From the NCBI GenBank assembly GCA_964016885.1, contig CAXHJY010001696.1, forward strand, positions 1-64,000: a stretch of DNA of 64,000 nt, written 5' to 3'. This DNA is from Eledone cirrhosa (Eukaryota). The position numbers and the translations under genes were made by a program. Positions 5,388 through 58,705 of the stretch are shown here, one piece after another. Numbering within the stretch: position 1 is the stretch's first letter; every line of letters starts with the position of its first letter. Below the pieces are notes generated by a model that was given only the letters and a program-made list of their open reading frames with translations, had not been told where the DNA came from and did no database searches.

Positions 5388-5581
5388 AGGAACGAGTAGG
5401 ACCCCGACGGCTGAGCTCAAGCCGTTTCGACGGCTAATTCTGGACTCAGAATTAGCCGTCGAAACGGCTTGAGCTCAGCCGTCGGGGTCCTACTCGTTCC
5501 TATTACCCACTCTACTACCCTAAGTATTGAGTACTTTGGTGCGTTATGGTCCACCTGGTTCCTTACCACATTTCCTTCGTT
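5388..5581 (+). mobile_element. PLE-like fold-back element, family A (~55-bp arms plus ~80-bp tail)
   Basis: Near-perfect inverted arms. The right arm carries an HHR 3' half, GAA-ACGGCTTGAGCTCAGCCGT-C-GGGGTCC. Flanked by (TA)n; 8 copies in the window. Confidence 0.85.
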
Positions 5582-5656
5582 ATATATATATATATATTAT
5601 TGAGTAAAATGACAGGAGGCTGGACTGGTGAAATTCCTCTAAAGATTTATTATACC

Positions 5657-5718
5657 AAACACTATGTATATTTCAGTGGCCAAGTTCCGTCAGATCCTAG
5701 TGACATCGTCAGGTGTTT
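5657..5718 (-). ncRNA. Type I hammerhead ribozyme motif
   Basis: Minus strand reads AAACAC-CTGACGA-TGTCACTAGG..CTTGGCCACT-GAA-ATATACAT-A-GTGTTT. It lies in a ~150-bp island between (TA)n tracts. Confidence 0.8.
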
Positions 5719-5915
5719 ATTGATCCAGTAGTGAGTCACCAAACTTAAATGAATATATATATATATATGTGTGTGTGTGTGTGTGTGTGTCTGTGTGTGG
5801 AGAAATCAGTAATTGTATAGTGTACGTTCATAAATATAGGATTTCTTGAAATATTCTTTTATTCTCAAATATAAATATTCTTTAATGAAAAAAAAATTAT
5901 TATTAGAGTCTCTAG

Positions 5916-6310
5916 AGGGCGGTGGATTGGCAGTATCGGTAGAGGGTCGGACGCCATGTTTTGCAGCATAGAGTTACGCCCCTTTACAGTCTAAGTTCAA
6001 ATCCCGCCGAGGTTAACTTTGCCTTTCATCCTTACGAGATCGATAAAATAAAGTACCAGTCACGCACTGGGGTCGATTTAATCGACATTCCCCTCCCCCA
6101 AAATTGCTGGTCTTGTGCCTATATAAGAAACCATTATTAGAGTCTCTAGGGTTGGACGCCATGCTTTCTAGCATAGTTACGTCCCTTTACAGTCTGAGTT
6201 CAAATCCCGCCGAGGTTAACTTTGCCTTTCATCCTTACGAGATCGATAAATAATTATCCAGTAATGTACTGGATAATTTGCTGGCCTTGTGCCTAAAGTA
6301 GAAACAATTA
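5916..6310 (+). mobile_element. Two tandem tRNA-derived SINE copies (long form 5916-6135, short form 6149-6310)
   Basis: Same A/B boxes and central domain as 2636-2822. The long form has an extra GGTCGATTTAATCGAC..CCCCTCCCCCAAAA segment. Confidence 0.85.
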
Positions 6311-6729
6311 TTATAGTCTCTAGCTGCTGTTCGATATGGATCACTTACAATAAAATTTCACCGGAGATAGATTAGCATAATTTATTAAGCGGGGGCGCGG
6401 TGGTGGTGGTGGTGGTGGTGGGGGGTGTTGTAAAAAAACTGAAATCTTTAATAATAGTACATGGGTAAAGCTGAAAACAAAACTATTTCCTCCAAAATAA
6501 CAACATATCATGTTGTTATTTTGGGGTGGAAAACATGAATAACGATAAATAACAGAAATAAAATGCACTCTGGTTATGGAATGGATAAATACGTCATTAA
6601 AATCTCGTTAAGCAGAAAAGTATCGTATTTTCTCGTTGGTCAATCATGCATTTACAACAAGGAGCCATTAAAGCGCATTAAACTACAGAACAGGAAACAA
6701 AACGAGATAGAGAAGAAAAATACTTGTAG

Positions 6730-7250
6730 ATACCACCACCATAATGTATAGGATCCACCACTACCACCACCTCCACCACCTCCACCACCATAGTGTATAG
6801 AATTCCACCACCACCGCCACTATCACTACTACAAATACTACCACCACTACCATAGTGTATAGAATTCCACCACTACTACCACCACTACTACTACTACCAC
6901 CACCTCCACCACTACTACTACCACCACCACCACTAACATAGTGTATAGAATTCCACGACCACCGCCACCACTACCACTATCACCATCACTACCACCACTA
7001 ACATAGTGTATAGAATTCCACCACCATCGCCACTACCGCCACTACTACCACTACCACCACTACTACCACTACCACCACCTCCACCACTACCACCATCACT
7101 ACCACCACTAACATAGTGTATAGAATTCCACCACCATCGCCACTACCGCCACTACTACCACCACCGCCACTACCACCACTACTACCACTACCACCACCTC
7201 CACCACTACCACTACCTCCACCACCACCACCACCACCACCACCACCACAT
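6730..7250. repeat. (ACC/ACT)n-based minisatellite punctuated by CATAGTGTATAGAATTCCA
   Basis: The motif recurs about 5 times between trinucleotide runs. Confidence 0.85.
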
Positions 7251-55731: not shown

Positions 55732-55739
55732 TGACGTCA
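55732..55739. promoter_or_regulatory. Perfect CRE palindrome
   Basis: tTGACGTCAc in a unique island. Confidence 0.35.
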
Positions 55740-55909
55740 CACACCAGTCACTGATAGATAGCTGTAGAATGGTGGTGGGGTGGAGGGCGGGCGGGTGGGA
55801 GGGAGTGGGGATGGGGGTATACCTACCCCCCAAAAAGATGAAACGCACCTTTTGCCCTCATACACCTCTCGCTCTTATCAGCAGCAGTGCCGCCCTCATC
55901 CCTAACAGT

Positions 55910-57075
55910 GCCACCGACACTACCAACACCACCACCACTATCTACACCACCACCATCACCACCACCACTATCTACACCACCACCATCACCACCAACACTA
56001 CCAACACCACCACCACTATCTACACCACCACCATCACCACCACCACTATCTACACCACCACCATCACCACCAACACTACCAACACCACCACCACTATCTA
56101 CACCACCACCATCACCACCACCACTATCTACACCACCACCATCACCACCAACACTACCAACACCACCACCACTATCTACACCACCACCATCACCACCGAC
56201 ACTACCAACACCACCGCCACTATCTACACCACCACCATCACCACCAACACTACCAACACCACCGCCACTATCTACACCACCACCATCACCACCACCACTA
56301 TCTACACCACCACCATCACCACCAACACTACCAACACCACCACCACTATCTACACCACCACCATCACCACCACCACTATCTACACCACCACCATCACCAC
56401 CAACACTACCAACACCACCACCACTATCTACACCACCACCATCACCACCGACACTACCAACACCACCACCACTATCTACACCACCACCATCACCACCACC
56501 ACTATCTACACCACCACCATCACCACCGACACTACCAACACCACCACCACTATCTACACCACCACCATCACCACCACCACTATCTACACCACCACCATCA
56601 CCACCAACACTACCAACACCACCACCACTATCTACACCACCACCATCACCACCACCACTATCTACACCACCACCATCACCACCGACACTACCAACACCAC
56701 CACCACTATCTACACCACCACCATCACCACCACCACTATCTACACCACCACCATCACCACCAACACTACCAACACCACCACCACTATCTACACCACCACC
56801 ATCACCACCACCACTATCTACACCACCACCATCACCACCAACACTACCAACACCACCGCCACTATCTACACCACCACCATCACCACCAACACTACCAACA
56901 CCACCGCCACTATCTACACCACCACCATCACCACCAACACTACCAACACCATCACCACTATCTACCCCACCGCCACCACCACCACTATCTACCCCACCGC
57001 CACCAGCACCACCACTATCTACCCCACCTCCACCACCACCACTATCTACCCCACCGCCACCACTACCACTATCCA
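55910..57075. repeat. (ACC)-based minisatellite with 27- and 39-bp units
   Basis: ACCACCACTATCTACACCACCACCATC and ACC[A/G]ACACTACCAAC modules. Confidence 0.9.
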
Positions 57076-58137
57076 CCCCCATCTCCTCAATTGTTCATAT
57101 TCTCGGCCTCATTATCACTGATAAAGTTCTTTCTGCTCCACGCCACATCCCCACCCCCGACCACACCAATACCACCATCATCATCATCATCATCATAATC
57201 TCTACCACTATCTTCGTAGTTTCATCAATCATCACCATCATCGACACTGCTACCATCACCACCATCATCACCACCACCACCACCACCACCACCAACACCA
57301 CCGCCAACACCACCACCACCAACACCACCACCATCACCACCACCGCCAACACCACCACCACCACCACTACCATCACCATCACCAACACCAATATATGCAC
57401 AATCTTGCATATTACAATTATTTCGATATCGGACTGACATCTCTCTCTCTCTCTCTCTATATATATATATATATATATATATATACATATATATATATGT
57501 ATATATATATATATATATATATATATATATATATGTATATATATATATGTATATAAAATATATATATATGTATATATATATATATATATATATGTTTTAA
57601 ACTTATGATATAATTTAAACTTACAAGTTTATTTTCGTCAGCTATTTAATTGCTAAAAAGTCATTGCCAAACAGAATATTTACTCAAAATCTTCTTCAAT
57701 CTTCGCCATTTTCTATAGCAAATATATATCATATAACATGGTTTCTGTTTTATTTGTATATATATATATATCTATATATATATCTATATATATCTATATA
57801 TATATATATATATATATATGCGTGCGAACAGTTAGTGATGATTAGTACTTCAGAGGCAGCCATATATAAATGTATGAAGGCATTCTCTGAACTTAATGTG
57901 CTGAGATGTTTACAAAAATCCTTTGAAATAGTGTATCTATATTATGTTTACGAGAATATGATAATCCTTAAGCGCTGTGTGAAATATCTACATATCTATA
58001 TATATACACGCACACACACACACACACACACACACACACACACACACACACACACACACACACACACACACACACACACATACACACACACACACTCGCA
58101 CACGCACATATACTTATTATACGGATCATCCAAGAGG

Positions 58138-58233
58138 TTGCACGAATCGTAAACAAGGTTTATATATATATATATATATATATATATATATATATATATA
58201 TATATATATAAACGTTGTTTACGATTCGTGCAA
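58138..58233. repeat. Short inverted repeat around (TA)n
   Basis: TTGCACGAATCGTAAACAA..(TA)n..TTGTTTACGATTCGTGCAA. Confidence 0.85.
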
Positions 58234-58278
58234 ATATATATATATATATATATGTGTATATATATATATATAGGAAGT

Positions 58279-58705
58279 GTATCCCGGGTTCAATCGGGGG
58301 GGGGGGGTAACCACAGTAAGTAAGGTACTTACTTATATTGCTGAGTATAAATTTTTGATATAGAAATGGCTTCTACAGGAATGGAACTGTTTCATTCGAA
58401 AGAAGTCATCAGAAAAGACATGGGTTTTCCTGATGATTTCCTTCGAATGAAACAGTTCTAGTCCCCTAGAAGCCATTTCTATATTTAAAAAAAGAAAATA
58501 TATATATATATATAGGAACGAGTAGGACACCGACGGCTGAGCTCAAACCGTTTCAACGGCTAATTCAGTCCAGAATTAGCCGTCGAAACGGCTTGAGCTC
58601 AGCCGTCGGGGTCCTACTGGTTCCTATTACCCACTCTACTACCCTAAGTATTGAGTACTTTGGTGCGTTATGGTCCACCTGGTTCCTTACCACATTTCCT
58701 TCGTT
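58279..58705. mobile_element. Adjacent family B (58279-58484) and family A (58514-58705) fold-back copies
   Basis: Homology to 29085-29277 and 5388-5581. Confidence 0.85.

What the first reader, a model, noticed from the sequence alone, without database searches (positions are those of the whole stretch)
5388..58705. Fixed outer ends and variable centres in fold-back elements point to twin priming from (TA)n at a defined internal site
Seen: family A (8 copies, most sharing both ends) starts its inverted arm at the complement of ..GTTCCTAT|TACC and ends ..TTCGTTA. Family C (4 copies) uses ..TTTTAATA|AATA and ..TTATTACTA. Families B, D and E behave likewise. Family H copies end either at ..ATAACAATA| or ~60 nt further at ..GAAACGAAAT. 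The central junctions differ between copies. Known: PLE insertions often have an inverted 5'-truncated pLTR plus a short tail. Inference: both (TA)n target strands prime reverse transcription, one at the RNA 3' end and one at a fixed TA-rich internal site 30-95 nt upstream, and the two cDNAs are then joined. These palindromes would be retro-products rather than MITEs.
Basis: partly seen in the sequence, partly recalled or inferred. Interest (0 to 1): 0.75.

Follow-up and report, generated by a model that had tools for sequence, protein, structure and literature searches.

The report
Twin-primed Penelope retrotransposon stumps
The fold-back repeats are short end-pieces, likely of Penelope-like jumping genes, that sit in TA repeats and stop at two fixed points; a third of them carry a mirror arm with sequence missing from the other half, which suggests that both cut DNA strands likely start copying the element's RNA, a so far unsettled step in how these elements insert.

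Summary
Family A has 8 copies and C has 4. Outer ends are fixed, centres vary, and most ends abut (TA)n (16 of 21 arm ends, 18 of 21 tail ends; background 1.3%). Raw reads show the same two family A ends genome-wide. The elements are not MITEs: 17 minimal-hammerhead motifs were found against 0.13 in shuffles, and the ribozyme form, (TA)n targeting and a tail motif match Hydra-clade Penelope-like elements (PLEs). No RT or endonuclease gene lies in the window. Inverted repeat plus tail is known PLE anatomy, and two RT start sites with extension of both target strands were shown in vitro in 2024. What this adds is a discriminating class: 7 of 21 copies, and 13 read junctions, have an inverted arm holding sequence absent from the direct part. 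That fits twin priming better than the published self-priming model. A conserved RCTC…GAGY motif lies 3–8 nt behind the inner site. One correction: the outer site is probably internal too, not the RNA 3' end. Full palindromes (12 of 21) remain compatible with snap-back. Verdict: new members of a known kind, with a testable mechanistic lead.

The parts
5389..5580 (+). Family A copy A1: inverted arm, direct hammerhead 3' half, 79-nt tail; near-full palindrome
10926..11051 (+). A2: inverted arm joined to tail only; 58 arm nt absent from direct part, 5-nt gap, short microhomology at the joint
29328..29512 (-). A3: near-full palindrome plus tail; both arms share two variants
30148..30325 (-). A4: near-full palindrome plus tail
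39702..39836 (+). A5: inverted arm joined to tail at the inner site (45 arm nt absent from direct part)
42943..43099 (+). A6: diverged family A copy, partial overlap, not in clean (TA)n
44162..44274 (-). A7: 10-nt inverted arm plus longer direct part and tail
58515..58704 (+). A8: near-full palindrome plus tail; arms differ at 4 of 54 sites; inner site at 58627, tail motif from 58633
4800..4941 (-). B1: palindromic centre followed by an internal deletion (ambiguous class)
12707..12802 (+). B2: inverted arm with whole hammerhead joined to part of tail (60 arm nt absent from direct part)
29088..29275 (+). B3: palindrome plus 70-nt tail; complete minimal hammerhead, core at 29146
39843..39995 (-). 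B4: palindrome with shortened tail
40025..40171 (-). B5: arm (reference 1-70) and tail (72-130) in opposite orientation without overlap; not in the 21-copy table
58273..58479 (-). B6: palindrome plus tail
16720..16949 (-). C1: palindrome plus tail; hammerhead with CAGAAGA core at 16875
28410..28594 (+). C2: palindrome centred in stem II plus 89-nt tail
43766..43932 (+). C3: inverted arm with whole hammerhead, 10 inserted nt, then tail from the inner site (71 arm nt absent from direct part)
53118..53237 (+). C4: 26-nt arm, 12-nt overlap, tail
36694..36998 (+). Family D, single copy: 108-nt arms, hammerhead, tail with strong GCTC..GAGC hairpin; not in (TA)n; right end approximate
52427..52816 (+). 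Family E, single copy: 147-nt arms, hammerhead, 95-nt tail
27139..27312 (+). Family F: palindrome plus 35-nt tail; no hammerhead core or tail motif found
11114..11312 (+). K1: inverted arm with hammerhead ending at the inner site, joined to a diverged tail (only a 20-nt match to K2's end)
52160..52388 (+). K2: plain 5'-truncated copy with hammerhead (core 52196), inner site and 95-nt tail
5198..5366 (+). G1: hammerhead-bearing copy in (TA)n; tail-like motif on the opposite strand; same ends and joint as G2
30718..30886 (+). G2: 98.8% identical to G1, other flanks; complete hammerhead, core at 30789
31129..31240 (+). H1: long-ended family H copy (no hammerhead seen, no inverted arm); coordinates approximate
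42345..42460 (+). H3: long-ended family H copy; coordinates approximate
39419..39471 (-). H2: short-ended family H copy stopping at the inner site
44346..44390 (+). H4: short-ended family H copy
19610..19639 (+). H5: short-ended family H copy

Best explanation
These repeats are short, 5'-truncated ends, likely of Penelope-like retrotransposons of the Hydra clade, whose inverted arm and tail stop at two fixed sites, and they likely form when both nicked strands of a (TA)n target prime reverse transcription on one RNA, one at each site, after which the two copies would be joined. Shown: the anatomy, the two fixed ends, the (TA)n flanks, the hammerhead motifs, 3-5 TA letters shared between element and flank at the inner site, and copies whose arm holds sequence missing from the direct part. 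Taken from the literature: a PLE protein nicks and extends both strands and starts at two internal RNA sites that bound the tail. Inferred: (1) the inner site is the unit boundary of a longer-than-unit RNA, and the tail is the start of the next unit; (2) the RCTC..GAGY motif 3-8 nt behind the inner site helps place the enzyme; (3) if the outer copy stops on meeting the inner primer, an arm-plus-tail product results, as in L1 twin priming; (4) if it displaces the inner copy and runs on to the hammerhead, where both tend to stop, a palindrome results; (5) the ends join through short homology.
For: 7 of 21 inverted copies have 14-133 arm nt absent from the direct part, and B5 is an eighth. A cDNA folding back on itself cannot make this. 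In A2, A5, C3 and C4 the direct part begins within about 12 nt of the inner site. 13 of 15 listed read junctions join an arm reaching 58567-58580 to a direct part starting at 58604-58666; 8 of 13 start within 10 nt of the site (binomial p 0.002). The inner site is also a plain 3' end in 3 of 5 H copies, so it behaves as a start site of its own. Arms of one copy usually share variants (A: 5 of 214 mismatches within copies, 61 of 1049 between), which fits one template. A1 and A8 carry the central loop in opposite orientations. ATA or TAT closes the inner site in A, B, C, E, F, H and K (by eye; such a 3-mer has frequency 0.075). Hammerheads: 17 against a mean of 0.13 and a maximum of 2 in 60 shuffles. 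In vitro two-site, two-strand behaviour: PMC11167929.
Against: 12 of 21 copies are near-full palindromes with 44-147-nt overlaps, whereas L1 twin priming gave only 1-10-bp duplications (PMC11702581); displacement is an added, untested step. Shared variants between arms are predicted equally by snap-back. B1 shows that a palindrome can later lose an inner piece, so arm-plus-tail copies could be deletion products. The clustering at the inner site weakens if the four joints at 58621 are dropped (4 of 9, p 0.11) or counted once (5 of 10, p 0.045). The read sample is biased against palindrome centres: about 7,100-7,200 molecules end at 58574, beside an AATT that I infer to be a library cut site, and contigs break at hairpins. 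G1 and G2 share one joint at two loci. The lizard PLE starts without homology to the target, unlike the TA match here. Pairing of the tail motif has weak covariation support (51 of 500 shuffles as high), and the lowest-energy fold of A does not use that pair. In B the within-copy mismatch (0.08) is hardly below the between-copy value (0.092).
Confidence: 0.62

Rival explanations
1. Snap-back or self-priming. One cDNA (or an antisense template, as published for rotifer PLEs) folds back at a hammerhead stem and copies itself as far as the TA-like inner site, where it jumps to the target. Arm-plus-tail copies are later deletions.
For: Centres of A, B and C palindromes lie in or just before the hammerhead's 5' half, where hairpins exist. 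Arms share variants. B1 has a secondary deletion. This is the published reading (PMC3846280).
Against: Needs a deletion of one whole arm, often ending at the inner site, in 7 of 21 copies and in 13 read junctions. Does not explain plain copies ending at the inner site (family H), the opposite loop orientation of A1 and A8, or the discordant arms of A8.
Confidence: 0.22
2. Dual priming on two RNAs. Each target strand primes on its own RNA, held for example by a protein dimer, one at each start site.
For: Explains long overlaps without displacement. A8's arms differ at 4 of 54 sites, one of them (58619) a variant common in the reads. A dimer was predicted for the lizard protein. Dual priming was proposed for L1 (PMC2837659).
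Against: A1, A3, A4, B4, C2 and C4 share variants across arms, so both RNAs would have to come from one source locus. It gives no reason for direct parts to begin near the inner site.
Confidence: 0.1
3. The inverted units formed a few times and were then recopied as finished units by read-through transcription.
For: G1 and G2 are 98.8% identical end to end at unrelated loci.
Against: No two A, B or C copies share a centre; the 14 listed opposite-strand read junctions all differ.
Confidence: 0.04
4. MITEs or other fold-back DNA transposons that insert at TA.
For: Short palindromes flanked by TA.
Against: The two termini are not inverted repeats of each other, the tail is on one side only, centres vary, many copies are not palindromic, and hammerheads are present.
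Confidence: 0.02

Closest known systems
Hydra-clade EN+ Penelope-like elements (Craig et al. 2021, PMC8557442; passages, section 15 and supplement parts 2, 52, 53 seen)
   Same: (TA)n listed as target for 26 of 27 families; hammerhead near the 3' end; the extra U after the core and U before GAA seen in families B and C occurs in 14 of 26 Hydra rows; an inverted 5'-truncated copy is noted for Penelope-13_HM. A GCTC..GAGCAC motif follows a TA-rich stretch about 40 nt behind the cut site in Hydra-2_Amil and Hydra-2_Ajap, and stands at the 5' start of Hydra-1_Ajap (by eye).
   Different: No ORF in the window; six window motifs had no exact match in the supplement, so these are not the listed families. 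The tail motif and the arm-plus-tail class are not discussed in the parts I saw.
Poseidon element PAc of Anolis in vitro (Frangieh et al. 2024, PMC11167929; main text and start of methods read, supplements not seen)
   Same: Both strands cut and extended; AT-rich targets; two internal RT start sites that bound the tail, in a stem-loop; uncut RNA is the template (here arms span the hammerhead cut site, 20-56 nt before the inner site).
   Different: PAc starts without target homology; here 3-5 TA letters match. The text read does not treat the inverted arm.
Inverted pLTR plus tail of rotifer Penelope elements (Arkhipova et al. 2013, PMC3846280; passages)
   Same: Head-to-head inverted pLTR, one-sided tail, palindromes at the junction.
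   Different: Explained there by self-priming on an antisense template; tails about 31 bp, against 35-95 nt here; real target-site duplications, which (TA)n hides here.
L1 twin priming (passages of PMC2837659 and PMC11702581; the original 2001 paper recalled, not read)
   Same: Second target strand primes inside the RNA by microhomology; inverted 5' part joined to the 3' part with a small gap or overlap.
   Different: The L1 inner site is not fixed and overlaps are 1-10 bp; here the site is fixed per family and overlaps reach 147 nt.
Minimal hammerheads of PLEs (Cervera and de la Pena 2014, PMC4209133; parts 1-2 of 4 read)
   Same: Type I minimal motifs, short palindromic stem III, pairs on opposite strands 100-700 bp apart, U3-A8 core variant (family J here).
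   Different: B and C lack the usual G10.1-C11.1 pair; C has a CAGAAGA core; cleavage untested.

Membership tests
EN+ Penelope-like elements | Single ORF with PLE-type RT and GIY-YIG endonuclease | tested here: inconclusive
   No RT or endonuclease family among 150 of 242 window reading frames scanned; no genome held; two metagenome scans found nothing. Copies are too short to hold the ORF.
EN+ Penelope-like elements | Minimal hammerhead in the terminal repeat | tested here: met
   17 hits (two overlap) against 0.13 in shuffles, in B, C, D, E, G, K and others; A keeps only the 3' half (by eye); none seen in F or H. Variant cores were added to the descriptor after I saw them; the same descriptor was run on the shuffles. 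Rfam gave no hammerhead in two targeted scans.
EN+ Penelope-like elements | Inverted 5'-truncated copy at the 5' end | tested here: met
   21 copies; 14 of 15 listed read junctions are strand switches.
EN+ Penelope-like elements | Optional tail at one end | tested here: met
   35-95 nt, mostly longer than the 30-40 bp described.
EN+ Penelope-like elements | Direct or partial tandem pLTRs | not testable with these tools
   No long copy in the window and no assembly.
Hydra clade | Hydra-type RT and endonuclease without CCHH | not testable with these tools
   No coding sequence linked to these ends.
Hydra clade | Insertion into (TA)n | tested here: met
   16 of 21 and 18 of 21 ends; not exclusive to Hydra (Naiad too).
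Hydra clade | Hammerhead present, often with U after the core and U before GAA | tested here: met
   Families B and C; other clades' ribozymes were not surveyed.
Naiad clade | No canonical hammerhead | tested here: not met
   Hammerheads in B, C, D, E, G, K. Family H, with none seen, stays open: its reading frame had no homologue and no match in the supplement.
MITE / TIR DNA transposon | Terminal inverted repeats at both ends and a constant centre | tested here: not met
L1-type twin priming (works like) | Inverted 5' part joined near the second priming site, with microhomology to the target | tested here: inconclusive
   Met by about a third of copies and by the read junctions; not met as such by the 12 long palindromes.

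The most novel reading that the evidence does not exclude
In Hydra-clade PLEs twin priming is programmed, not accidental. A conserved stem-loop at the start of the element's unit places reverse transcriptase at a fixed TA-like site, so the second strand of a (TA)n target primes there as a routine step. This one step would account for the tail, the inverted pLTR and the microsatellite bias, and would replace antisense self-priming as the explanation.
Probability: 0.35. Interest if true: 0.65.

Novelty: new member of a known kind. Interest (0 to 1): 0.42.

Why it matters
How PLEs make their tandem and inverted ends and why they favour microsatellites was named as unexplained in 2021. The 2024 in vitro work explained the tail but, in the text I read, not the inversion. 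The arm-plus-tail copies separate twin priming from the published self-priming model, and the fixed site with its motif gives a defined mutation target in an existing assay. In practice, such palindromes in TA-rich animal genomes should be annotated as PLE ends, not MITEs or microRNA hairpins.

Tried and rejected
No whole genome is held, so no assembly-wide map and no empty-site comparison. Rfam on the whole window listed only microsatellite-driven microRNA-type matches among the 150 of 748 rows shown, all below their gathering scores; targeted scans of two ribozymes gave no hammerhead. Pfam on 150 of 242 reading frames gave no RT or endonuclease; the 92 left out were simple-repeat, SINE-overlapping or the shortest frames. 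The family H frame found no homologue. Metagenome scans with an A and a B pattern found nothing. No RNA holder was listed. Run X5 laid only 2 records and was not used. The generic inverted-repeat tool was swamped by microsatellites. Covariation of the tail stem was weak and two rows were misaligned. The motif test was positive for 5 of 9 tails (A8, B3, D, E, K2) and negative for A6, C2, F1 and H3; the other three C copies have it; background 0.78%, while any 4-bp hairpin occurs at 63%. The motif was defined after inspection. The native sequence upstream of family A's stem II could not be established. Look-ups of earlier notes by sequence and by place were empty.
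Full report
Setting. The window is microsatellite-rich eukaryotic DNA; about 22 kb of 64 kb is simple repeat. No genome is held. I recall its common SINE as resembling octopus repeats; this was not tested.

Observation. Family A has 8 copies, C 4 and H 5; D and E are single. For 21 copies with an inverted part I fitted arm and direct segment to a sense reference. Twelve are near-full palindromes with a one-sided tail (A1, A3, A4, A8, B3, B4, B6, C1, C2, D, E, F1). 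One has a 10-nt arm (A7). One is a palindrome with a later deletion (B1). Seven have an arm with 14-133 nt absent from the direct part (A2, A5, A6, B2, C3, C4, K1); K1's direct match is only 20 nt and A6 is diverged. B5, outside this table, is an eighth. For six copies (A8, B3, C1, D, E, F1) the reference was the copy's own direct arm, so extra arm sequence could not show. 16 of 21 arm ends and 18 of 21 tail ends touch alternating A/T runs of 6 or more, against 1.3% background. Tails are 35-95 nt.

Genome-wide check. I laid four public runs on the direct part of A8. About 24,000 reads aligned in each of two reduced-representation runs. Loose ends behind 58627 read (AT)n in 3456 and 3019 reads; a variant subfamily ends at the same motif (1251 and 1345 reads); the other listed ends lie at the tail end. 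So both family A ends are fixed beyond this window. Of 15 listed junctions (6 more not shown), 14 switch strand, and 13 join an arm reaching 58567-58580 to a direct part starting at 58604-58666. Several rows have a single read start and are probably single loci. The sample cannot show palindrome centres: about 7,100-7,200 molecules end at 58574 beside an AATT, which I take for a library cut site, and contigs break at hairpins. It shows that arm-plus-tail copies recur, not how common they are.

What the elements are. A type I minimal-hammerhead descriptor gives 17 hits against a mean of 0.13 and a maximum of 2 in 60 shuffles; B and C fold as three-way junctions, though no more stably than shuffles. 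Such ribozymes mark PLE terminal repeats (PMC4209133). Inverted 5'-truncated copies and a one-sided tail are standard PLE anatomy. The supplement of PMC8557442 points to the Hydra clade: (TA)n targets in 26 of 27 families, and the U..U closure seen in B and C in 14 of 26 ribozyme rows. A motif RCTC..GAGY lies 3-8 nt behind the inner site in A, B, D, E, K and three of four C copies, against 0.78% of background positions; it is absent in A6, C2, F and H and was defined after inspection. [quoted passage not shown] I infer that the inner site is the unit boundary and the tail is the start of the next unit. No RT or endonuclease sequence was found, so PLE membership rests on non-coding marks (about 0.95) and Hydra membership is likely but untested at protein level (about 0.75).

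Mechanism. In vitro, a lizard PLE nicks and extends both strands of AT-rich DNA and starts at two internal RNA sites that bound the tail, using uncut RNA (PMC11167929). The open part is the inversion. The published reading is self-priming on an antisense template. A cDNA that copies itself cannot put into the arm what the direct part lacks, yet a third of the window's copies and 13 read junctions show this. Their direct parts tend to begin near the inner site: 8 of 13 within 10 nt (p 0.002), but 4 of 9 (p 0.11) without the four joints at 58621. This is the geometry of L1 twin priming, with the difference that the inner site is fixed. Plain H copies ending at the inner site, and 3-5 TA letters shared with the flank, fit priming from (TA)n there. 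Against this, long palindromes need strand displacement or a second RNA; shared variants between arms fit snap-back just as well; B1 shows that later deletion happens; and G1 and G2 share a joint. Arm and direct 5' stops in A, B and C fall in or just before the hammerhead's 5' half, which could be a stall, the RNA start, or a fold-back aid. I put twin priming on one RNA at 0.62, snap-back with deletion at 0.22, two RNAs at 0.10, recopied units at 0.04 and MITE at 0.02.

Literature seen. PMC11167929: main text and start of methods. PMC4209133: parts 1-2 of 4. PMC8557442: passages, section 15, supplement searches and parts 2, 52, 53. PMC3846280, PMC2837659, PMC11702581, PMC13282606 and bioRxiv 10.64898/2026.07.22.740005: passages only; the supplement of PMC13282606 was listed, not opened. 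Searches found no paper applying twin or dual priming to PLEs, and 'twin priming' has 0 occurrences in the five PLE papers at the top. The library lacks most subscription papers, including older PLE reviews, so this is weak evidence of novelty. Earlier notes of this scan describe similar mini-palindromes and 5' stops at the hammerhead in other genomes; they are unchecked leads.

Verdict. The feature is real, and the elements are new families of a known kind. Most of the anatomy and the two start sites are known. The arm-plus-tail class and the motif at the inner site make an acknowledged open question testable. Interest 0.42.

Noticed in passing
window 5035-5580, 28995-29512, 39560-40171, 58273-58704: PLE ends of different families pile up side by side in the same (TA)n tract, as if each insertion leaves targets for the next.
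   Followed up: no
window 23-868, 12496-12697, 58138-58233: Three palindromes with short unique outer arms and a centre made of mirror-ordered microsatellites, e.g. (TC)n(TA)n(AG)n; no hammerhead noted; origin unexplained.
   Followed up: no
window 43505-43712 and 36501-36678 (family J, ribozyme on the - strand): Two copies with a shared (TA)n-flanked end and a hammerhead-like core of the U3-A8 type; stem I did not pass the full descriptor.
   Followed up: partly
window 16875 and 43827 (- strand): Family C ribozyme core reads CAGAAGA, a change at a normally fixed position, with intact stems I-III; activity unknown.
   Followed up: partly
window 5198-5366 and 30718-30886: Family G copies have the same ends and joint at unrelated loci; either a recurring exact twin-primed joint or a recopied unit.
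   Followed up: partly
window 31117-31257: Family H keeps an open frame across both of its end sites and has no hammerhead in view; a possible PLE ORF start, but no homologue was found.
   Followed up: yes
window 1893, 19485, 54876 (+); 39611, 17068 (-): Further complete minimal hammerheads of families not analysed.
   Followed up: no
window 52992-53011 (- strand): An isolated tail motif like that of A and B, with no ribozyme found nearby.
   Followed up: partly
13 segments, e.g. window 2525-3056, 5895-6323, 14926-15151: An abundant SINE-like repeat, partly in tandem; recalled as octopus-like, not tested.
   Followed up: no
window 23651-26416: A 2.8-kb tandem array with periods of 90, 134 and 358 and 92-96% matches.
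   Followed up: no
window 11617-11799: An old, imperfect 180-nt palindrome (69% self-complementary) after a (TA)n run.
   Followed up: no
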